DNA of 62,941 nt, filler included, from Phoronis australis (taxonomy: Eukaryota; Animalia; Phoronida), in assembly GCA_002633005.1 (NCBI GenBank). It is 9 parts of 9 records of this genome, joined end to end, with 100 filler letters (N's around TTAATTAATTAA, not from the genome) between each part and the next. Parts side by side here need not be neighbours in the genome. Positions count along the whole stretch, not along the records: positions 58,734 to 62,941 come from NMRA01002664.1; 8 more parts are not named here. The stretch is one strand, 5' to 3'. A program made the translations under genes and the position numbers. Shown here piece after piece: positions 16,848 through 62,941 of this stretch. How positions within the stretch are numbered: position 1 is the first letter of the stretch; every line of letters starts with the position of its first letter. The notes beneath the pieces are model-generated. The model searched no databases. It was not told where the DNA came from and saw only the letters and a program-made list of their open reading frames with translations.

Positions 16848-17950
16848 CACTGGCCTCCACTGGCCGCCAGTTTCCTCCACTGGCCTCCACTGGCCTCCAC
16901 TGGCCTCCATTGGCCTCCACTGGCCTCCACTGGCCTCCACTGGCCTCCACTGGATTCCACTGGCCTCCACTGGCTTCCACTGGCCTCCACGGGCCTCAAT
17001 TGGCCAGGACTGGCCTCTACTGGCCTCCACTGGCCTCCACTGGCCTCCACTGTCCTCCACTGGCCAAGACTGTCCTCAACTGCCCTCCACTGGCCCCCAA
17101 TGGCCTCCACTGGCCTCCACTGGCATACAATGGCCTCCACTGGCATCCACTGGCCTCCAATGGCTTCCACTGGTCTCCACTGGCGTCCTTTGGCCTCCAC
17201 TTGCGTCCACTGGCCTCCGCTGGCCTCCACTGGCCTCCACTGGTCGCCACTGGCCTCCACTGGCCTCCACTGGCCTCCACTGACCTCCACTTGCGTCCAC
17301 CGACCTCCACTGTCCTGAACTGGCCTCCACTGGCGTATAATGGCCTCCACTGGCTTCCACTTGCCTCCACTGGCCTCCAGGGTCCTGCACTGGCCTCCAC
17401 GTGCCTATACTGGCCTCCACTGGCCTCCACTGGCCTCCGCTGGCCTCCACTGGCCGCCACTGCCCTCCACTGTCCTCCACTGGCCTCCACTGGCCTCCAC
17501 TGGATTCCACTGGCCTCCACTGGCTTCCACTGGCCTGCACGGGCCTCCATTGGCCAAGACTGGCCTCCACTGGCCTCCACTGGCCTCCACTGGCCTCCAC
17601 TGGCCTCCACTGGCCTCCACTGGCCTCCACTGGCCTCCACTGGCATCCACTGGACTCCACTGGCCTCCACTTGCCTCCACTGGCCTCCACTTGCTTCCAG
17701 TGTCCTGCACTGGCCTCCACGTGCCTATACTGGCCTCCACTGGCCTCCACTGGCCTCCACTGGCTCCCACTGGCTTCCACTGGCCTCAACTGGCCTCCAC
17801 TGTCCTCCACTGGCCTTCACTGGCCTCAACTGGCCTCTACTGGCCTCCACTTGCCTCCACTGGCCTCCACTGGCATCCACTGACCTCCACTTGCCTCCGC
17901 TGGACTCCACTGGCCTCCGCTGGCCTCCACTGGCCTCCACTGGCCTCCAC
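16848..17950. repeat. 10-bp minisatellite (TGGCCTCCAC)n, about 110 copies
   Basis: Direct reading; explains all ASTGLHWPPL / WRPVEASGGQ ORFs. Confidence 0.97.
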
Positions 17951-17953
17951 TAG

Positions 17954-19547
17954 ACAATGAGAGTATTTAAGACAATCAAAAAAATGACATGATTAAGACA
18001 GGCAGGGTATAAAAGGTTAAGTAAATTACAGCCACTTTTTAACATTAACTTTAAAGGTAGTAATTGAATTGGATCGTTTAGTTTCTGGCTAAAAGATTTC
18101 CATATTATAGCAGCTGCATAGATAAAAGATCTCTTGCCCGTCTCGGTTTTAATTTTTTTAGAAGAAACATTGCCAGCAACAGAAGAACGTGTAGAGTAAA
18201 CAGCCTGACTGCTATTGAATTTACTGCTGAGATATGCTGGAGCCAAGCCATTGATACATCTGTGTATACACAACAGGCAGAGAGATATTTATTTCTTTGT
18301 CTTACTTTCATAAATCCCAGCTTGGAATACAAGTCGTCAGCCCTAGTGTCCCTAATTTTAGTACCCAGGATAGCCCTGGCGGCTCTATTTTGGATTACTT
18401 GGACTTTGTTTACAAGTGTGTCACTAGTGTGCCCCCAAACCGGTAAACAATAATCAATATGAGGCTGAATAATAGAATGGTAAAGGGTCTTAAGAGTAAG
18501 AAATTTGCCTACACGTTTAAGTACACCGATTTTCTTTGATAATTTTTTGTGATATGATCTATGTGCATATTAAATTTAAGATTGGGATCTAAAGTAAGGC
18601 CCAAGTACTTAAACTTGTCAACATTCTCGATGGGAGAACCGTTGATACAAAGGTATAGTTTTTGTTGTTTTAATTTTTGGTGGGTTCCAAACAGCATCGA
18701 CTTGGTTTTATTAAAGTTAAGAGTGAGTTTATTTTGAATCAGCCAGTCATGGATAATGGCTAGCTCATTGTTGAGAGAAGTTTCGAGTTCTTTTACGGAT
18801 CCAGCTGTGGACATAATTGCAGTGTTATCAGCGTATAAAACTGGGACACTGTTGTGGAGGACAGTAGGGAGGTCGTTAACAAAAATAGTGAATAATAGAG
18901 GGCCCAAGATGGAACCCTGAGGTACCCCCGTGATTACGGTTGAGTAGTCAGAAAGTATACCACCGTATTTGGTGGCATGTTTACGGTCGTATAAGTAGTT
19001 TCTAAACCAAAGGAGTTCGTTATCATTAACTCCATATGACTCTAGTTTCTGCAATAGGATACCATGGTCCACAGTGTCAAAGGCTTTTTTAAGGTCAACA
19101 AAGACAGCACCAGTTACCCTCCCCTGATCCATATTATTAAAGATAAACTCAGTAGCATGAATGTTTGTAGTAAGAGTGGAATGCAAGGGGCGAAAACCAG
19201 GCTGTGCTGCCGAGAGAAGGGAATTTTGCTCCAGGAACTGGTGAAGCTGCTTTTGAACACACCTTTCAAGAATTTTGAACACTGCAGGGAGGACCGATAT
19301 TGGTCTATAATTTTCGGAACTTGACTTTTCACCATCTTTAAAAACAGGAGTACCAACTGCCATCTTCCATTCTCTAGGAATTGTGGCCGTTTTTAAATTA
19401 AATTCATGATGTTGGTAAGGGGCTCAGCTATTTCTTGAGACGGCAGTTTTAATAGTTTGGCATCAATGCTATCGATGCCACTGGCACTACTAGAGTTCAA
19501 GGTTTTTATTTGTTCTCGGACGTAGCCAACTTGAATGTCTTGAAACT
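17954..19547 (-). mobile_element. 5'-truncated, decayed CR1-group (CR1/L2/Crack-like) LINE ORF2, RT plus C-terminus
   Basis: NYRPISVL, FVDLKKAFDTVDH, GVPQGSILGPLLF, YADN (catalytic YADD mutated, 18824-18835), FKYLG, downstream GLAPAYL and KRSF; at least three frameshifts. Confidence 0.95.
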
Positions 19548-21455
19548 CTCTCCGCCAATCCCCGCCTCTACTGGCCTCTCCTCGCCTCTCTTGGCTTTTC
19601 CTCTCCTCTCTTCGCCTCTCCTAGAATCTCCTGTCTTCTCCTGGCCTCTCCTCGCCTCGCCTGGGCTCTCCTCGCCTCCCTTTGCATCTCCTGCTTTCTC
19701 CTCGGATCGACTCTTCTATCCTCTCCTCTCCTGAGCTATCCTGGCCTGTCCTCGCCTCTCCTGGCCTGTATTGGACTCTCCTAGCCTCTGTTGAACACTC
19801 CTAGATTCTCCTGTCCTCTCCTGGCCTATCCTCGCCTCTCATGGCCTCTGCTCTCCTCTCCTGGCCTCTCAAGGCCTTTGCTTGCATTTCCTCGTCTCTC
19901 CTCCCCTCCCTGGCCTTTCCTCGCCTTCAATCGCCTGTCCTCGCCTCTCCTAGCCTGTATTGGCATCTTCTGGCCTGTCTTGGTCATTCCTGGCCTATGG
20001 TGGACTCTCCTAGCTTCTCCTGACCTCTCCTGGCTTGTCTTAGCCTTTCCTCGCCTATCCTGGCATCTCCTTGTCCCTCCTGGCCTATCTTCGCCTATCC
20101 TGACCTCTCCTGTCCTCTCGTGCCCCCCCCCCCTTGGCCTCTTATGGCTTCTCATGGTCTCTCCTGTCCTCTCTTCGCCTCTCCTCGCCCCTGCTGGTCT
20201 CTACTATCCTCTCCTTGCCTCCTCACGCTTTGCCTCGCGTCTCGTGAAATCTATTGACCTCTTCTGGTCTCTCCTCGCCTCTTCTCCCCTCCAATGGCTC
20301 CTGGCCTCTTCTCCAATGTCCTGGCCTCTCCTTGATTCCCTTCGCCTCTCCTTGCATCTCCTGGCCTCTCCTAGCATCTCCTGGCCTCTGCTCGTCTCTC
20401 TTCACATCTCCTGGCCTTTTTTGGCCTCTCCTTGCCCCTCTTCGCCTCTCCTTGCCCTTCCTCGCCTCTCCTCTCCCCAACTCTCATGACCTCTCCTCGC
20501 ATCTCTTCGCCACTCCTTGCCTCTCCTCGCCTATCTTTACCTCTCCTGGCCTCTGCTGGAAATTCGTGGCTCCTGGCCTATAATGGCATCTCCTCGCCTC
20601 TACTGGCCCCTGTTCGCCTCTCCTGGCATCTCCTGGACACTCCTGGCCTCTCTTCAGCTCTCTTGGCCACGCCTTTCCTTTCCTCGCCTCTTCTGTTATT
20701 TCCTGGCCTCTCTTCTCCTATCCTGGCATCTCCTGGCCTCTCCTCCCGTCTCCTCGCCACTCTTCGCCTCTACTGGCCTCTCCTCGCCTATCCTGGCATT
20801 TCCTGGCCTCTCCTGGTCCAGGAGAGTCCAATGGACTCGCCTGGCTTCACCTGACATCTCCCGGCCCCTCCTGGCTCCTCCTGTCCTCTTCCCGCCTCTC
20901 CTGACCTCTCCTCACCTTTTCTAACGTCTACTGTCCTAACCTCTACTGGCCTTTCCTTGCCTCTCCTCGGCTGTCCTGGGCTCTCCTGGTTTCTGCCGCC
21001 CTCTCCTCGCCTCTTCTGGCCCTACTATCCTCTCCTTGCCTCTCCTCGCTTCGCCTCACCTCTCGTGAACTCTCTTGGCCTCTTCTGGCTTTTGCTTGCC
21101 TCTTCTGGCTTCTCCTGGCGTTTCCTGGCCTCTTCTTGCTTCTCCTGGCATCTCCTGGCTTCTTCTGGTCTCTCCTTCCCTTTCCTGGTCTCTCGTGGCA
21201 TCTCCTCGCCTCCCGTGACCTCTAGTCGCCTCTCCTGGCCTCTTCTCGTCTCTCCTCCCCTCTCATCGCCTCCCCTTCCCTCTGATCCCCTCTCCTAGCC
21301 TCTTCTGATCTCTCCTGTCCTCTCCTGGCCTATCCTGACGTTTCCTGTTCTGTCATCGCCCCTCCTCGCCTTTCCTGGCCTCTCATGGCTCCTGGCCCTT
21401 TGTGGCACCTCTTGGATACTCCTTGCTTCCTCTTGCCTCTCCTGGCCTCTCCTCG
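19548..21455. repeat. Degenerate 10-bp pyrimidine-rich minisatellite (TGGCCTCTCC / TCGCCTCTCC)n
   Basis: 10-bp periodicity visible throughout; source of the SPLLASPGLS ORFs. Confidence 0.9.
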
Positions 21456-52540: not shown

Positions 52541-55500
52541 TTTTACTTACTATTCTGCATGATTTAACAGTGTTCACCAAATTTCAGCCTCGCAGTTGTT
52601 ACTCATTAAGAGATAAATGTGCTCACAATTCTCGTTGGACTTCGTCTCATTTCTGGCGGCACCTACAATGTCGACTTTTGCCGAACTGAAAGGCATGTTC
52701 ACTCGGCTACTTTGTAATTTGTGAAGATTTAACGTTGATACATTTTGACAAACGTTGCTACAAAAAAGAAGCTTTGTTCAATTTTCGTGTTTTTTGTATT
52801 TGTGGCCAGCGACCAGTTAGGCCTAAGGGTAGTCTTGGCGCAAAGCTGCCTCCCGTTCATTAACGCTAGGACCGCGCTAAAAAGCAAGACTTCGCGAGAT
52901 TACGTGAGATATGACCGAGCATTTTAAATAACTTGAGAACACGTGACTTTGACTACGTTTTAGCTAGGTCCTAGCGTAGGTCCTAGCGTCTACTGAACGC
53001 ACGTCTGTATAGGCTTACTAACAAGCTGTATTTTGACTATAGTCTTCACTGGTAGCTGGTGACTGAGGCTAACTGAGGTCTGCCGCGGCAGTGTGACACA
53101 GGACTAACCCGGCAGCCCGTAATTTCATGCAAGTGTCTGAAACTACCCTTGNNNNNNNNNNNNNNNNNNNNNNNNNNNNNNNNNNNNNNNNNNNNTTAAT
53201 TAATTAANNNNNNNNNNNNNNNNNNNNNNNNNNNNNNNNNNNNNNNNNNNNTAGGCGGTCTCTGCTACCTGTCCAGGGATTCCCATACGGGCCCGTATCA
53301 GAATGTGTGCTAATTAATTGAATAAAAAGTTTTAAAGGTAACAATTTTCATCAACTTGTATTTTAATCTATATGAAATGACCAACTAATGTGATTCCTCG
53401 AACTTCCACGTATTTTTCACTAAAGTAAACCATTCAGCATGCATTTTGTGACCTTGAACGTCATTTGAATTTATTCATGCTGTCTTAATTTCTTGTTATC
53501 AACACTTAAAAGGTATTACAATGACCTGGACACCACTCAGTTGTGAGAAGTGGAGAACTGTAACAGTATGTGTCACAAAAATGTGACCAATGACGGAAGA
53601 TACACACCTAGTATCGTACTGCGTGTATTAAGTAAGACACCGTCTCATAATGTGCACCCTCATGAAAATGGCAGCAATCTGACGCAGCAGGCCGTCCCAA
53701 TCAAAGGAATGTTTTCATTTGGTCAATCTATTACTCCTCGGAAGGGGTCATGGCACTTTTCAATAAACTCTGATCACAAGACACTTACAAACCGTAATTA
53801 TTTAAAGTATAACTGAAATAATTATCAAGTTACAACTGTTGAAGAAGAAATCTTACAAATTCAACCGAGGCATTGAAGAGCAACAGCCTAACTAATAACC
53901 ACGTCATAGATATCCAGATCAATGTGCCCGTCTTTTGGAAATATTGAATACCGAAAGAGTGTTCTCAATTGGAATCGTGCCACATGTGATCCTGTGGTGA
54001 AGAGACCAGAGAGATCTTCATGGTAACTGCATGAATAGAGTACTTTCAAAAACTGAACCGCATGGGGTTTACGACGAAGTTATTCAGACAGGTGGTTCGT
54101 CAGCCTTGATTCGTGGACAGAGATTTGCCTTAGGGGTCATGGTTTCTCAAACGGATAGGGTGGTGTTTTTGTTTCCTGTCCGTCAACATTTAACGTCATT
54201 TCTTTCGATTTAGTACAACTCGTGCTGCTTTCCACTATCAGGCTCTACCCGCCCGTCTACGCCGTGATTAAAGCGAACCCCACCGGCCGTAAAGTGAGAA
54301 TATCCATATTGGCGAAAGTGATATGCAAAGAGTTGGAGTAAATCTGTCTAAACAGTAGAGCAAATTCGCACATCTGTATGTGCGAGTTTTCTATTTCACC
54401 TGCTAAAACGACCCCTAAAATAAAAATTGACACCAACGAGACGCGCATGTACAACTTGGAAAGTAAACTATTGAAGATACTGCATTTGACACGCGCCCTG
54501 TGTTGGTCACATCACGTGAAGACATGCAACTTGTTACTGTGACACAAAAGACTTTTTTTCTGTGTAATTTACAAAAAAAAAAACAAGTTTTACATCATGT
54601 AAAATTTGAGCATTTGTTCTCTTTTTACCTAAAAAACATTCAAGTATGAATGGACTCACTGGAGACAGCCCGAAAGTTATTATCTCTACCGCGAATGATG
54701 TTACAGTTGTGTCTCCAATGAGTTGCCAGCAGTCACTGGTACGGTGCGCGGCTTTAGACGCTCTGCGGCTGGGTTCAAGATCTTTTATAGGCCTAACTAT
54801 TCCCAATTCCCGTATGAATTTCAAAAATATGTTGACTGCATTTGTCTAAGGTTACAGCCAGTAGTTTTTCATATGGAATACATTACACAATACGTGTCTG
54901 ATCGAGTCCGCACAGTCATTTGTCTTCGAAAATTTATCATTAGCTGCTAACTGGTTAATACATCAAAATGTGTGCAAGTGTCGGGATGTTGCGATGATGC
55001 ATTTTGAAGGTACATGTACTAAGTTTTCAAAATAGAGAGACATCGACAGAACTCTTCCTGGTAACATTATACTTGGATAAACTATTTGCCGGAATTATTT
55101 AGCAGTTTAGTCGAACTTTTGTCGGACTTGAAAGTGACATTGCGCCTAACAACTAATTGCTTTTTGTGAATGGACTTTCATAGTAAGATGTAATTTCGAC
55201 TACCTAAATGGAGCGACAACTGTCGAGTTTGTGTAGAGATTTAGCTAGAATTGAAATGGATTCTTGTCGAAAAGAATATTTAGTGGCGGTGTTGTGCGCC
55301 AAAACCCAAATTTTGACGTTGTCTAGTTTAATTAGAAAACTACAGTATGCTAGTCTTTGCACCTTTGTATTGTAATTTCTTGGTATGTTTGAGAACATAA
55401 AAATAGACATGTCTATGCAGTTGTTGTTGTTACAGCAATATCTTTACAAACTGTAAACCATTTGCGTCCTAACGACCGTAAGGTCCACCTTCACAAACGT

Positions 55501-56796
55501 AAAATACACGAGTTGTTTTGTGTGACTAGTGTTCTCAAAAAGGAGCTCATAACTCGAGGATTACACCGTTTTGTACGAAACTGAAGTCACGTAACAAGCC
55601 AAACATTTTACAAAAGTCTTGAACACGTCAAATCAAAAATTTCTTTCAGCATTACTTGAATTTGGAATTATTTAAAAAAGATCGCTTATGAGTTCAAGTA
55701 GTCTCAACAACAGAAACAGTTGCTTTTACAATGTAATCTACCTCACAAAATAGTTGTTGTAAAATAAAAAGGCAAGACAGCTATTCCAAGTTTAAGGAGA
55801 CCATGCTCTGCTTAACCAGGGAATGCTTGCTTCCGAACAAGTTTTTGTAAAGGGAAAATAAATTATTCCAAGGAATTGGGTAAAATGTAATCGCTAATTT
55901 GTTCAGTGTAATCTCATGATGAGAAAATTGTGTATACAATGTTTTTTATTCTGTCAGAATGTTGACTTNNNNNNNNNNNNNNNNNNNNNNNNNNNNNNNN
56001 NNNNNNNNNNNNTTAATTAATTAANNNNNNNNNNNNNNNNNNNNNNNNNNNNNNNNNNNNNNNNNNNNCGATCTCATGCTCACGACGTGCTTTAAATTCC
56101 GACCCGACTTCTGCATTAATTTCTTACTTGGATTTCAAATCACAGTTTTTTAGCTCATGGTGTGTCTAACGATGAACTTTTGACCTACTTAGAATGGACC
56201 ACAATGCACCAGCTTAACCCATTTAATACGCTGACTCCGCCGGTGAGCAGATTGACTTTGTTTAAATTAAACGTTTTTGTGGTAAGTGAGTTAATTATGT
56301 CCTGCAAATTCAGATTACATCGGGCGTAAATTTTGAAATAATGAACGTGGCTAAGGGGTGCGTGAATAGGTTATACTTGTATTGACTAAAGTGAAGTTTT
56401 CACCGAATAAATTAACCGAAGTCCTTGAGATTTTCATGTCTCAACACATAATCGGCTTTTTCTCTGCTTCGACACGAGTTCTTCAAAATGGCTCTGTGGA
56501 TTTCACTAAAACTTTCTAAACTTATCAATTTCAAAATTTTGCTAAATGTAACAAAGACGAATACGACTACGTATTTTTTACAAATTATATTACGTTTTGT
56601 GAGTTTATTTGACCTAGAAATCAAACGAAAAGGCTAATTGACAATTTGTAACAACGCTTTTGAGGTAACTGGCGAAGTTTTCTTTTAAATGTTTCATTAA
56701 ACTTGACCGAGGATTATTTTGCTGTGAATGTACCTTTTTAAACATAGAATTTTCACTTAAAATGTACAAACATAATAATAATAATTACCCGTTAAA

Positions 56797-57685
56797 TTTG
56801 ATAATATACACTGTATGTTCAATAAATAAGGTTTGAGGTAACCTTAAGGCAGATTCTACAACCCTTCGAAATTTTAGATGTATGTTACGCTGAGCAATCT
56901 CTCGGAACTGAATTCTCCTTAAGCCAAGAAAAAATACATGTATATCGCAGAGAAATCGAGGTGTCTTTTAGAATAATTTTTCTGCTCATGTCGGTGCCGA
57001 CAGAGTGCAGGTTACTGAAACACATCGGTGTTAAAGATGCACTGTAGCAATCAATAAAATCATTTAAAGCAAATGAATCGTTTTGTTTTGTGGGAGGGAA
57101 AGAAAGTGGGAGGCAGGGATGGAGTAAGGGAGGGGGTTGGAGAGAGAGAGAGAGAGAAACAGTGGAGAGAGAGCGAGATAGTGGTGGGAAAGAGAGAGGG
57201 AGATATACATACACGTACACACTCACACACACACACGCGAGCGCGCGCGCNTTTGATAATATACACTGTATGTTCAATAAATAAGGTTTGAGATAACCTT
57301 AAGGCAGATTCTACAACTCTTCGAAATTTTAGATGTATGTTACGCTGAGCAATCTCTCGGAACTGAATTCTCCTTAAGCCAAGAAAAAATATATCGCAGA
57401 GAAATCGAGGTGTCTTTTAGAATAGTTTTTCTGGGCATGTCGGTGCCGACAGAGTGCAGGTTACTGAAACACATCGGTGTTAAAGATGCACTGTAGCAAT
57501 CAATAAAATCATTTAAAGCAAATGAATCGTTTTGTTTTGTGGGAGGGAAAGAAAGTGGGAGGCAGGGATGGTGTAAGAGAGGGAGTTAGAGAGAGAGAGT
57601 AAGAGTAGGGAGAGAGCGAGATAGTGGTGGGAAAGAGAGAGGGAGATATACATACACGTACACACTCACACACACACGCGAGCGA
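56797..57685. repeat. About 455-bp duplication joined by a single N, ending in (GA)n/(CA)n
   Basis: Copies start at 56797 and 57252; N at 57251. Confidence 0.85.
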
Positions 57686-59289
57686 GAGCGCTCACGCGCA
57701 CACATATATATGCAGGACTGATTAAACACAAGATACTATTCGTTATTGACATTGATGAAGAAACTGACCAAGAGACATTATTAAAGCGTACACAATATTT
57801 CGAAACATACTTGTTCCATCTCAAGTGGAAATAAAATTACGCAGTAATGCCACCACAGAGCATAAGCTGGAGACATGCAAGGTGAGACACGGCAGGTGTG
57901 AAATGCTGCAATAACAATAATAATAAGTGAAGGGGGGAGGGAAAGATATTTTCAACACTTCAAAATGGCAAAGAAAACGGAAAAGGATTCACTGTTTGAT
58001 CTAGAATACTATGAGGAGTGCCAACCTTTAAGAGCAATTCCATATAAAAAACAGATGGTGGGCTATATATGCAAAATCACCAATTTTTTTGAAACTTAGC
58101 ACATCAGCTGGCCTTGCCAAAAGAAACCTAAACCTGAATTTTTAAAAGCTTCCGAGTTCTTTTTAACCCTTTTTACGACCACTTAGTACCTTTTCTGAAA
58201 AATAGCAAATAATAGTACTTGGAAGTAGGTGACTTTTGTCAGCAACAGCACATCATCCCTTCACGCTATTGAAAAAATAACTATATAGCAGAAAGAAGAA
58301 AGAATAAAATACAAGAAAAACTAGTTCGGGTGGATTTATTGATTTTTTATGTTCTCCCATTTTAGCCTACAAAAATATCATTTTCACTACTTAATATTAA
58401 GGCCATTTTTACGCATTTTTATCACTTTCCCAAATCTATATCGGATTCTTTTGGAACATGAGTTAACTTCCATCTGTTACAGCTGTCATTGTTCAGCCCA
58501 ACGCAAGAATAAAAAATCTTGTCTCTTTCATAGTTTTTGTGCAGTCAGTTTTTTACATAACTCACTTACACACTTTTCTGCCAATCTGTGACTGTCAGTT
58601 TGATTAAAAGACTCTAGGTGGCGCTACTCGACTNNNNNNNNNNNNNNNNNNNNNNNNNNNNNNNNNNNNNNNNNNNNTTAATTAATTAANNNNNNNNNNN
58701 NNNNNNNNNNNNNNNNNNNNNNNNNNNNNNNNNTAATTATCATCAAGATATAACACAAATCCGAAATCGTACAGAATGCCACAAACAGTCATGAAGATGT
58801 TAAATCTCACGAGTTAATAATGGCAGGGTAATAACAATTTTTCAAATAATCAAATGCAATAACGATAAAAATGCCCATAAAATCGATTACTCCAAAGAAA
58901 ACATTAAATCAGGGTTTGAACAAGTTGTCCATTGCTAACTCACATACCATATGATTACAAAAATGGCTAAGTACGCATGCGTAGAGTCCAGAAACACTGA
59001 TTGAGATAATTAATCTCGTGAAACAAAGATTTTTAAAATAATCATATGCGCCAACCATAAAACCACCCGTAAAACAACCTGCAAAAAAGCCTCCGAGGCA
59101 CGCCTTTTGAAATTGACTGAACTTTTGACTCTGTTCAACCAAAAAAATAAACTGTCTCTTTTTTTTCTTGATAATAAAAGATTCCACATAACACCCCAAA
59201 ATACCGAGGCTCTTTTGTTTTGGTGGCCCACATGTTGTCAAGATGTCAGACAAACTTGTTAAGAGCATTTTCCAACGATAGCATTAGAA

Positions 59290-60624
59290 TATCTATTATA
59301 CCTTCTACTTATTGATTGCAGGTATAGAACTCTCTGCAGTAAAAACGGCATTACCAATTTGAAATTTGTGCAGAATGTAGTTGACGAAAGGGACTACTGT
59401 ACAGAAATATCTAGAGCACCAATTTGCTTTCTTGAACGAAAAATACTTTTTCAGGTCGATCCCAGACGCCCTGTGGTTGCACGCTCATGAATTCATTTTG
59501 CCGCGACTTGTTGGTGTACATCATAAGTGTGTTACTATGGATATTGCAACTTCTAGCTTGTGTCCTGATTGCTCTACAATTTGACCATTTCATCCATAAT
59601 GTCCCACGGAGTACTGCTGTTCAGAGAATAAACAGTTTAAACAAACTGATTACGAGGCTAGGTAACCTGAACACCCCTTCTTTAATGTCAAAGACATCCC
59701 CATCGCGAACAAAACTCAGGTGTGGTAAGTATCTTCTCACCATGTCCGTCATGTCATTTTGCTCATGCATGTTTCGTCAAATTTCGTCAAATTTCGTCTG
59801 TGGGAGTTCTGATTAACTCTATTACTTTCCTCGTTGGTCTATCAGGACTACTAAGCGGTGGGTGGCAGGCATATGTCGCTGCGCTGACGAACTGGAAACC
59901 GCGGGGAGGCACTATGTGTTCGAACCAGTTTCCTCTAGGTTTGTCGTTGTCGTTCAGTAATTTAATTTGTATCGGTTACAAAACAGTTTCTATTAAATTC
60001 AAAACAAAATTCCTAAAATATTCAATGTTGTTTTCATCTTCAACCAGAATGCACCACTCAGTGTCGGAATACGTTGTCGTTTCACTTCTAGCCAGAGAAC
60101 CTAACCCTAAAACTGGAAACTGCTGAGGATGTGGTCCCACTATCCGTAGTGATGTAGAAATCAGACACCAGAAAAGTTACTCATTTGGTGAATAAAGTCT
60201 TCGAACTGTTGTCTTGTCTCACGAACTTACTCTTTTTAAATGTCTATTAACTCGTTATCTGACAGATTTGCACTAAATTTAGCCTGAATTTCAGCCATTA
60301 ACATATTTGCTCTGCAAGATGTCGTCTCTCTGATATTAGTTAGATTAAATTGAACTTTTAAAATGTAATTAAAAGTTTTTTTTCGCATTTCATTAAAAAC
60401 ATCTCACAAAAGGCAACTTCATTTCTTTTCGTGGCCACTTCAACTTTCTCAGTGTTCTTTGATCGCTTGGTTCGCAAAATAGCGGCATTGTAGAGCGCAT
60501 ATGCTTCAATGAAATCGCCACGGAACTTTGCCATCGTAGCCCTCTCTGCACAAATGTCGCCCATTCTTTCTAAATCATCTCTCGATCCATTTAACAGAGT
60601 CTCAGCAAGGAGTTCTTCTTCCAT
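59290..60624 (-). pseudogene. Intronless disrupted gene: helical/TPR-like N-terminus + DUF294/GlnD-GlnE-like nucleotidyltransferase + substrate-binding domain
   Basis: Manual translation: FIEAYALYNAAILR; VGPHPQQFPVLGLGSLARSETTTYSDTEWCILV..YFRNF; PPRGFQF..ACHPPL..ELIRTP; FDIKEGVFRLPSL; STPWDIMDEM; HKLEVAISI; several stops and frameshifts. Confidence 0.75.
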
Positions 60625-60701
60625 CGCCAGGTCTGTCAGCCGCTTCTCTACAAAACGTTGTCAGTCCATTAATAGATAACTTGCACAAAAGTTTGTTTTA
60701 A

Positions 60702-61705
60702 ATCGAATTATACATTCTTAAGAAATTAATTTCATGCATAATAATGTTTAAGTCGACGCAATGATTTCTCCAGTCCAATGAGTCTTAATCCATGTTGTGC
60801 ACCAACACAACATACGTTTCAAATCTTTTCATTATGATGACAGGAAATGATATCTCTGAGCAGATCATTATGATGACCATTATTGCGGTAAACCAACACT
60901 GTAATTTTAAATTTTCAACATTTGTTTACAAAGCATCGTTCCCGTATGTTTCAAAATTCTGTAAACGCGACGTCGTTCTCAATCATATACAATTTTTAGC
61001 TTTGATTTATCATCACAGTAGCATCCCGGCTCCGTTCGACAACATTTTCCAATTTGGGTGTGATGGTCGCTTGGGTAATATCTTCGTGTTGTTATGCATG
61101 TCGCATATATGCGAGATATGAAACATCCATGAGGGCAACCGGAACGCCTGAGGTAACTTCGTGGTATCATCCCGCAGGCCCGTAGCCAGGAGGCTTCGGG
61201 GGNATCGAATTATACATTCTTAAGAAATTAATTTCATGCATAATAATGTTTAAGTCGACGCAATGATTTCTCCAGTCCAGTGAGTCTTAATCCATGTTGT
61301 GAACCAACACAAAATACGTTTCAAATCTTTTCATTCTGATGACAGAAAATGATATCTCTGAGCAGATCATTATGGTGACCATTATTGCGGTAAACCAACA
61401 CTGTAATTTTAAATTTTCAACATTTGTTTACAAAACATCGTTCCCGTATGTTTCAAAATTCTGTAAACGCGACGTCGTTCTCAATCATATACAATTTTTA
61501 GCTTTGATTTGTCATCAGAGTAGCATCCCGGCTCAGATCGACGACATTTTCCAGTTTGGGTGCGATGGTCGCTTGGGTAATATCTTCGTGTTGTTATGCA
61601 TGTCGCATATATGCGAGATATGAAACATCCAAGAGGGCAACCGGAACGCCTGAGGTAACTTCGTGGTATCATTCCGCAGGCCCGTAGCCAGGAGGCTTCG
61701 GGGGG
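60702..61705. repeat. About 500-bp duplication joined by a single N
   Basis: Copies start at 60702 and 61204; N at 61203 in a poly-G run. Confidence 0.88.
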
Positions 61706-61795
61706 GGGGGTTTCAATCGAACCCCTGATCCATTAAAGATAGGATACAGATGGACAGCAAAAACCACGTTTGTTGCAACTACAGGTACTACTAGC

Positions 61796-62022
61796 CAGTG
61801 GCAGATTTAGGGGGGACAAGGGGGCCATGGTCCCCCTAAAATGCAAAATGCATAGCTTTGAACAAACCCCGTTTCCCGTTTTTTGTTAGTAATAACGTCC
61901 ACAAACCCAAAAGTTCAAGACCCCCTACATCCGTAAATTTTAGGCTGGGTGCTTGCATGTGGCTAAATTCTGGTCATTCCTGTGTCCTGTACCCCTAACT
62001 CAAAATCCTGGATCCGCCCCTG
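61796..62022. mobile_element. MITE with imperfect TIRs and 5-bp TSD
   Basis: CAGTGGCAGATTTAGG ... CCTGGATCCGCCCCTG; CTAGC at 61791-61795 and 62023-62027. Confidence 0.7.
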
Positions 62023-62941
62023 CTAGCTACGATGATAACTAAGTCAGTAACAAATTAAAATTTGCTTCCGATTCAAAGCGCTTCACGTAATCAGCGTGCC
62101 GTTCCCTGGCAACTTCACCCGAGTGGTCGAGTGGTGACACGATCTTGCGGACGAGTAGAGGAGGCTTTGTATTATTTATTGGCATTGAACGCTGTAGTGT
62201 TTTCACCGTAGGCTAGTAAGGGAGTCTAAAATTGAATGTCTATACCTAGCTAAGCTATATAGCAGCGAGAGCTCCCAAAATGTAATGCATTGTGAATGTC
62301 TTAAAATCGACCGAGAACCAGCAGCAAATAGCTATAGCATATTATCTATTATTTTGGTGTACTTGTTATGGTAAAGTGCTGCATTTTCAAATTTCGAATT
62401 GACAGTGATCGTCAAACATGTGTTCATCGGGTGTCCACTCTGACTGTGGAATAGTGGATTGACATGCATGCATGTACAAATGTCTGCGTTTATCTTCTTT
62501 TCAATTCAGTACACGTCGATGATAAGTTCAGTACACATATAATAAGTCTTCAGTCCTCGCTCAAACATCAGACATTTCACTACCGTATTTTCTTGAACTG
62601 AGAAAACTCCGACGAGCATGTTCACATTATTAGGAAAAGTAGATCTAGCCCTAAAAAGCGTTGGTTAATAAAGAAAGTCTTTTCGTGTCAATCAGTCATG
62701 ATGCGCAACCTTGCAGACTTCATGATAGCAACAGACGTGATGGAAAAGATTTCCAACATTACATGTCACTATCCGGAAGGTTCATTAACCTGAAGGTCCG
62801 CTAATCTGAAGATACACTTTAACTCTGAATGTTCACTACCTTTGAAAGTTCACTACTTCGAAAGCCCACAATTCGGAAACCAGAACTCCGACAATTCATT
62901 ACTCTAATTGTAAGCTAATAAGCCTGAGCTGACATGAATAC

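What the first reader, a model, noticed from the sequence alone, without database searches (positions are those of the whole stretch)
59290..60624. Hidden bacterial-type DUF294/GlnD-like nucleotidyltransferase gene in an animal genome
Seen: reading the minus strand across stops gives a continuous, intron-free protein with a helical N-terminus (ALYNAAILR), a pol-beta-superfamily motif GLGSLAR-x-E-x3-YSD-x-E (60057-60107), then PRGF / ELIRTP and FDIKEGVFRLP...PWDIMDEM...HKLEVAISI blocks. Established: hG[GS]...DxD/E is the nucleotidyltransferase signature of GlnD/GlnE/DUF294 proteins, mostly bacterial. Inference: this belongs to a poorly characterised TPR+NTase family that I recall from marine invertebrates and intracellular bacteria, possibly horizontally acquired and possibly an immune or signalling nucleotidylating enzyme. 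This copy is disrupted (e.g. TAA at 59976-59978), so intact paralogues may exist elsewhere in the genome.
Basis: partly seen in the sequence, partly recalled or inferred. Interest (0 to 1): 0.8.

Follow-up and report, generated by a model that had tools for sequence, protein, structure and literature searches.

The report
Decayed animal DrrA-like nucleotidyltransferase gene copy
This is a broken, non-coding copy of an animal gene family whose intact members (hundreds in amphioxus) are predicted to fold like the bacterial AMP-attaching enzymes DrrA and GlnE; the copy itself is an ordinary pseudogene, but close sister copies in this animal are weakly transcribed and the family's likely enzyme activity is untested.

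Summary
The motifs are real, but they do not form one continuous protein. On the minus strand, 60660-59374 is a decayed helical + nucleotidyltransferase + HEPN-like module, spread over all three frames. It has three in-frame TAA stops, at least six frameshifts and an internal deletion. The longest ATG-started frame is 88 codons.

The core passes Pfam DUF294 (22 bits, cut-off 21). Its best matches are amphioxus NTase+TPR proteins (up to 43% over 142 aa); named Rickettsiaceae homologues score lower. An intact amphioxus member is predicted to fold like DrrA (Z 24.5) and GlnE (Z 21.4).

Several breaks lie in exactly matching read-derived contigs, so they are not assembly errors. The same animal holds several 85-95% similar versions that differ at those stops. 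RNA reads resemble those versions; none is 99% or more like this copy (0 of 35, 0 of 7). One invariant aspartate is lost and no TPR tail follows.

Contamination is unsupported, and grouping with the rickettsial clade is rejected. The family is listed in a 2021 eLife supplement, and this scan noted it before in an annelid and elsewhere in this genome. Verdict: pseudogene of an under-studied, already-noted family.

The parts
60361..60660 (-). N-terminal helical (TPR-like) piece, 100 codons open, with ALYNAA; homology 60579-60394
   Evidence: Alone it retrieves 13 proteins at E<=0.001; 6 of 13 carry DUF294; 9 of the 10 looked up are Branchiostoma. The equivalent residues 1-105 of a homologue model match TPR folds, Z 7-11.
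60173..60400 (-). Helical linker in a second frame, with two in-frame TAA stops (60238-60236, 60229-60227)
59802..60170 (-). Nucleotidyltransferase core in a third frame, one TAA at 59978-59976
   Evidence: Pfam DUF294 22 bits, above the cut-off of 21; 43% over 142 aa to amphioxus P0019
60057..60107 (-). Pol-beta motif G-S-x10-D-x-E, intact, same G-to-D spacing as DrrA G98/D110/D112
   Evidence: DrrA motif from PMC7815794 passages
59886..59888 (-). Val in place of the Asp that is invariant in 85 of 85 aligned homologues (D274 of P0167); possibly the third metal ligand (inferred)
59772..59802 (-). Deletion junction at 59802/59801 (roughly 50 codons missing by the homologue profile) and a 10-bp tandem repeat, 2.7 copies, at 59772-59798
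   Evidence: other versions run on unlike on both sides of the junction (table 7); bridged by an exact contig 59630-59848
59374..59701 (-). C-terminal helical (HEPN-like/DUF294_C-type) region with at least four frameshifts
   Evidence: 53.6 bits against a maximum of 17.4 in 40 shuffles
60648..60650 (-). Candidate splice acceptor TAG near the start of the module (inferred, untested)

Best explanation
The locus is a pseudogene: a duplicated copy of an animal helical+nucleotidyltransferase+HEPN(+TPR) gene that carries several stops, frameshifts and a deletion and cannot encode the enzyme, while its intact relatives likely act as Mg-dependent enzymes that transfer AMP from ATP onto a target protein, as DrrA and GlnE do. 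Shown here: the homology, the lesions, close sister versions in the same animal, low RNA from such versions, and the predicted DrrA/GlnE fold of an amphioxus homologue. Inferred: that the copy arose by duplication within a family undergoing birth-and-death turnover and then drifted; that some sister copy is intact over its whole length; that ATP is the donor and a protein the acceptor (about 50%); and that TPR arrays or death-type domains set the trigger or target in an immune role (about 35%).
For: Lesions; longest ATG-started frame 88 codons. Lesions are in the reads: listed zero-difference contigs bridge 59531, 59578, the 59802 junction and 60175 (table 8). At the three TAA codons part of the contig depth keeps the window's letter: 28.6 of 95.3 in X2 at 60227-60238; 11.3 of 20.6 in X1 and 13.7 of 30.1 in X3 at 59978. 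Sister versions: at 59853-59991 contigs with 1, 18 and 20 differences; other versions differ inside each of the three stops. No third-position excess among the 39 best-supported differences in the module: 17/9/13 by codon position, p=0.56, as expected for drift. RNA: 35 reads in X5 (0 at 99%+, 5 at 95-99, 20 at 90-95, 10 below) and 7 in X7 (0/0/1/6); many of their differences also stand in the DNA contigs of the other versions. Fold of amphioxus P0167 (pLDDT 87.3): 4 Foldseek hits at E<=0.001, all DrrA or GlnE; Z 24.5 (rmsd 3.6, 297 aligned) to DrrA 6yx5 and Z 21.4 to GlnE 1v4a and 3k7d. D-x-E kept in 141 of 141 amphioxus modules. Two amphioxus members fused to CARD and TRADD-N are rows in the supplement of PMC8195603.
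Against: No whole genome was held, so no full-length intact paralogue was seen, and some sister contigs carry their own indels (near 60003 and 60521). The RNA comes from other individuals, so it could come from a divergent intact allele of this same locus. The DNA runs may be the sample the window was built from, so they test assembly error but are not independent. The breaks near 60401, 59635 and 59482 are not bridged by a listed exact contig with 31 letters on each side. The 39 differences are the tool's best-supported 40 of 153 rows (one lay outside the module), not all. A shared fold shows no function; no activity data exist for any member in the papers searched.
Confidence: 0.85

Rival explanations
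1. Segregating null allele: this haplotype is broken, but the same locus is intact and expressed on the other chromosome or in other individuals.
For: RNA reads from other individuals are mostly 90-95% alike and are in frame at 59635 (5 of 7 reads in X5; 4 of 4 in X6). One of the other DNA versions could be the second haplotype.
Against: More than ten lesions and 5-15% divergence are a lot for an allele. At least three versions stand at one place, so true paralogues exist that can explain the RNA.
Confidence: 0.1
2. Assembly artefact: a collapse or chimera of several paralogues, with errors creating the breaks.
For: Gappy short-read scaffold with 24 N runs; a near-perfect duplication flanks a single N just upstream; many similar copies exist.
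Against: Zero-difference contigs of 125-219 bases match the window and bridge four of the breaks.
Confidence: 0.03
3. Bacterial contaminant, or a recent insertion from an intracellular bacterium.
For: Rickettsiaceae genomes encode the same block order with a TPR tail; no intron inside the module.
Against: Best matches are amphioxus (100 bits, against 59 for the best named Rickettsiaceae protein). A tree holding the copy with the rickettsial-containing clade is rejected, p-AU 0.0003. GC is 0.40 against 0.41 for the window. The window is gene-poor, with a reverse-transcriptase fragment, satellites and high-copy repeats. Related RNA occurs in other individuals.
Confidence: 0.02

Closest known systems
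Amphioxus NTase+HEPN+TPR proteins (e.g. [quoted passage not shown]
   Same: Same block order and motifs over the whole module; 35 of 63 highly conserved positions kept; up to 43% identity in the core. LOC109461677 is hit P0096.
   Different: This copy is broken, lacks the invariant D274 and about 50 codons, shows no TPR tail, and sits on a long branch outside the amphioxus clade.
DrrA/SidM N-terminal adenylyltransferase domain (PDB 6yx5, 3nku; Pfam SidM_N)
   Same: G-S-x10-D-x-D/E spacing; predicted fold of an intact homologue, Z 24.5; weak profile match E=8e-4.
   Different: 11-13% identity; D-x-E rather than D-x-D; an animal genomic gene, not a secreted Legionella effector; target unknown; SidM_N score 19.2 is below its cut-off of 27.
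GlnE/GlnD nucleotidyltransferases and Pfam DUF294 (PF03445)
   Same: DUF294 above its gathering score; GlnE fold Z 21.4 for the homologue.
   Different: No HD, ACT, CBS or cNMP domains were found at the locus or listed for the homologues scanned; the partners are TPR arrays.
Rickettsiaceae (L001-L003) and chlamydial DUF294+TPR proteins (NEX2 of Neochlamydia, PMC4209131)
   Same: Helical N-terminus, NTase, helical C-domain and TPR array in the same order; a Rhabdochlamydia TPR protein is a hit at E=2.7e-13.
   Different: The rickettsial proteins form a separate, well-supported clade. NEX2 proteins themselves were not fetched, so that link is inferred from the paper's domain description.

Membership tests
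Pfam DUF294 (PF03445) | Profile score at or above the gathering cut-off | tested here: met
   22 bits against 21, E=1.6e-4; marginal
Pol-beta nucleotidyltransferase superfamily | hG[GS]-x9-13-D/E-x-D/E motif | tested here: met
   G, S, D and E align with G192, S193, D204, E206 of P0167
Pol-beta nucleotidyltransferase superfamily (active enzyme) | Third metal-binding carboxylate | tested here: inconclusive
   Of two further invariant acids, E238 is kept and D274 (85 of 85) is Val; which matches DrrA D150 was not resolved by superposition
Amphioxus-type NTase+HEPN+TPR family | Colinear helical N-domain, NTase core and C-terminal helical domain | tested here: met
   Profile positions 34-303 (140 bits) and 381-500 (53.6 bits) in order
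Amphioxus-type NTase+HEPN+TPR family | C-terminal TPR array | tested here: not met
   No tblastn hit there from 132 proteins; tail profile -7.1 bits on 56100-59370, below the shuffles. An N gap at 58634-58733 and unseen introns limit this test
Functional protein-coding member | Open reading frame through the module | tested here: not met
   Longest stop-free stretch 100 codons, longest ATG-started 88
DrrA/GlnE-type protein AMPylases | DrrA/GlnE fold | tested here: met
   For the intact homologue P0167 only:
DrrA/GlnE-type protein AMPylases | AMP transfer to a protein hydroxyl | not testable with these tools
   Needs a biochemical assay
Pfam SidM_N (PF20879) | Score at or above cut-off 27 | tested here: not met
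   19.2 bits

The most novel reading that the evidence does not exclude
The dead copy marks a fast-turning, lineage-specific subfamily whose intact, transcribed members are a third class of animal protein AMPylases (DrrA/GlnE fold), coupled to TPR sensors and death-type adaptors in invertebrate immunity, and sharing ancestry with proteins of intracellular Rickettsiales and Chlamydiae.
Probability: 0.3. Interest if true: 0.7.

Novelty: new member of a known kind. Interest (0 to 1): 0.3.

Why it matters
The locus itself matters little: it is a pseudogene. The family matters more. A 2021 review (PMC8097203, abstract and passages) names only two classes of animal AMPylases, Fic and SelO. An active DrrA/GlnE-fold family with hundreds of amphioxus members (837 hits; the 120 listed are all Branchiostoma) would add a third. 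This locus adds evidence of recent duplication, decay and low expression in one more animal, but intact amphioxus proteins are the better objects for testing.

Tried and rejected
No whole genome was held, so the tBLASTn for intact paralogues could not be run. A word-index search with the 129-aa core found none of 172 candidates at E<=0.001 (weak evidence). The PDB sequence search gave only DrrA at E=1.2; the profile search was filled by TPR hits. Viral contigs: 9 pattern matches, none confirmed. The first structure model, from a 12-sequence full-length alignment, was unusable (pLDDT 50.7). The clade test on 50 rows did not finish in three runs and was redone on 26 rows with LG+G4. The atlas rows only repeat DUF294. 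ranks mostly bacterial clusters first for P0174, so some unnamed rows on the 'animal side' of the tree may be bacterial. No RNA holder was listed by the index (no evidence either way). Rfam: 0 matches in 55000-62941. 13 of 14 other window ORFs scanned had no Pfam match. Literature: no paper held DUF294 + tetratricopeptide + invertebrate; searches gave no study devoted to this animal family; PMC13012124 passages were irrelevant. In PMC8195603, supplementary file 13 was not searched and file 4 was cut when stored; subscription papers are not covered. Rejected: a continuous gene; RNA editing or readthrough as rescue (too many frameshifts and a deletion); contamination; recent transfer from Rickettsiales.

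Full report
Observation. They do not form one frame: the ALYNAA block, the NTase block and the C-terminal blocks are spread over all three frames. The 129-residue core, read with X at its stop, scores 22 bits on Pfam DUF294 (cut-off 21, E=1.6e-4) and 19.2 bits on SidM_N (cut-off 27).

Relatives. The unbroken N-terminal piece (60660-60361), which holds no NTase motif, retrieved 13 proteins from 1.84 billion. Six of the 13 carry DUF294, and 9 of the 10 looked up are Branchiostoma proteins. This is independent support for the assignment. One amphioxus module then gave 837 hits among 7992 candidates scored; the 120 listed are all Branchiostoma. A profile scan of bacterial and archaeal genomes gave 3 loci from 25 pattern matches, all Rickettsiaceae MAGs, and metagenomes gave 9 from 203. 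The Rickettsiaceae proteins have the same block order and a TPR tail. One of them retrieved 57 shorter proteins, among them a soft coral, a Rhabdochlamydia and a Rickettsia endosymbiont protein. Against the window, amphioxus proteins score best (100 bits, 43% over 142 aa), the soft coral 69 bits and the best named Rickettsiaceae protein 59 bits.

Anatomy. A frameshift-aware alignment to a profile of 141 amphioxus modules covers 60573-59796 at 140 bits (6 shuffles: 13-18). It shows frameshifts near 60401 and 60171 and TAA stops at 60238-60236, 60229-60227 and 59978-59976. A broader profile covers 59701-59374 at 53.6 bits (40 shuffles: maximum 17.4), with frameshifts near 59631, 59578, 59531 and 59482. 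Between the two parts about 80 profile positions face about 32 codons. Contigs and RNA reads of other versions run on unlike on both sides of 59802/59801, so this copy has a deletion there, next to a 10-bp tandem repeat. The longest ATG-started frame is 88 codons. In an alignment of 85 homologues, the window keeps 35 of 63 highly conserved positions, including G192, S193, D204, E206, E238 and K390, but has Val at D274, which is invariant in 85 of 85. No TPR array follows, whereas the median amphioxus protein has 869 residues after its last motif.

Reads. Four DNA runs of one sample hold 57-76% of the sampled words; they may be the source of the assembly. Listed zero-difference contigs bridge the breaks at 59531, 59578, 59802 and 60175. 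At the three stops, part of the contig depth keeps the window's letter and part differs. Only the longest 16 records are shown per call, and the breaks near 60401, 59635 and 59482 are not formally bridged. At 59853-59991 contigs with 1, 18 and 20 differences stand side by side, so at least three versions exist; summed depth is not a copy number. Some other versions carry indels of their own. RNA from other individuals, with about 18-19% of each run read, gave 35 reads in X5 and 7 in X7. None is 99% or more alike and most of X5's are 90-95%. All X5 first mates lie on +, which in most stranded libraries means minus-strand RNA; X6 is mixed. Many RNA differences recur in the DNA contigs of the other versions, and 5 of 7 X5 reads are in frame at 59635. 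The 39 best-supported differences within the module fall 17/9/13 on codon positions 1/2/3, with no third-position excess (p=0.56). This fits drift of this copy, though the rows are a selected part (40 of 153).

Origin. Of 367 domain hits, 198 covered the core. After redundancy filtering, 50 went into the tree with the window: 6 of 152 amphioxus, 33 of 34 other proteins and 11 of 12 locus ORFs. No chlamydial row is among them. The window is a long branch (2.1) inside a starred set with amphioxus, soft coral and unnamed metagenome rows, apart from the Rickettsiales-containing clade (the same after dropping the longest row). On 26 rows, holding it with that clade is rejected, p-AU 0.0003; the model was simpler and the group was named after seeing the tree. 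The tree is unrooted and some unnamed rows may be bacterial, so an ancient transfer and its direction remain open. GC matches the window (0.40 against 0.41). The surroundings are gene-poor, with a reverse-transcriptase fragment, satellites and high-copy repeats.

Mechanism. An intact amphioxus module (P0167, 491 aa) was modelled at pLDDT 87.3. Its four Foldseek matches at E<=0.001 are DrrA and the two GlnE domains, with Z 24.5, 21.4 and 21.4, well above the TPR rows at Z 11 or less. DrrA uses G98-S99-L100...D110-x-D112 plus D150 to bind Mg and transfer AMP (PMC7815794, passages). The family has the same G-to-D spacing with D-x-E in 141 of 141 modules (the modules were picked by a pattern that requires the first D). 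I infer that intact members are protein nucleotidyltransferases, most likely AMPylases (about 50%), with TPR or death-type domains as trigger or target selector (about 35%). None of this applies to the window's copy, which cannot make the protein.

What is known. Two amphioxus members are rows in a supplement of PMC8195603 as CARD+FN3+TRADDN-DEDD2+NTase+HEPN+TPRs; the main-text passages I saw do not discuss this family. PMC4209131 describes a chlamydial expansion, NEX2, with DUF294 and TPRs (passages). PMC3710099 groups GlnD/GlnE, DUF294_C and DrrA C-domains with HEPN (passages). PMC8097203 lists only Fic and SelO as animal AMPylases (abstract and passages). Six searches found no study devoted to the animal family. 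This scan noted the family twice before: in an annelid (e1-7276116) and on another piece of this genome (e1-10581312). Those notes led me to the DrrA fold test and to the eLife supplement, both of which I checked on homologues.

Verdict. A real, decayed member of an already-noted but experimentally unstudied family. Interest 0.3; novel case probability 0.3, interest 0.7 if true.

Noticed in passing
window 60120-60122: Three X5 RNA reads match up to 60121 and continue upstream in other sequence (median 80 letters, agreement 0.97). The place is a CAG just before the FPVLGLGS motif, so some transcript of a sister copy may splice straight into the catalytic core. A paralogue with different upstream DNA is the alternative.
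   Followed up: no
window 60622-60650: Other versions differ inside the ATG at 60624-60622 (81.5 of 220.5 depth in X2), and a pyrimidine-rich TAG lies at 60650-60648. The module may be an internal or last exon.
   Followed up: partly
window 60702-61503: Two 98% identical copies, 502 bases apart, flank a single N at 61203; probably a scaffolding overlap of two haplotypes. A similar pair lies around the N at 57251.
   Followed up: no
window 18512-19423 (-): Reverse transcriptase fragment, RVT_1 E=9e-38, between two 10-bp minisatellite arrays (16848-17951, 19564-21453).
   Followed up: partly
window 61725-62300: Very high-copy short interspersed repeats: contig depth in the thousands, RNA reads in both orientations.
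   Followed up: no
window 59411-59438: A one-base insertion at 59438 in 4 of 9 X5 reads suggests one more frameshift here in the window's copy, and by-eye alignment then puts a TAG at 59413-59411 in frame; the profile alignment chose a different frame.
   Followed up: partly
L003 29-6470: A Rickettsiaceae MAG contig holds tandem NTase+TPR genes, one apparently split over two overlapping ORFs: similar turnover on the bacterial side.
   Followed up: no
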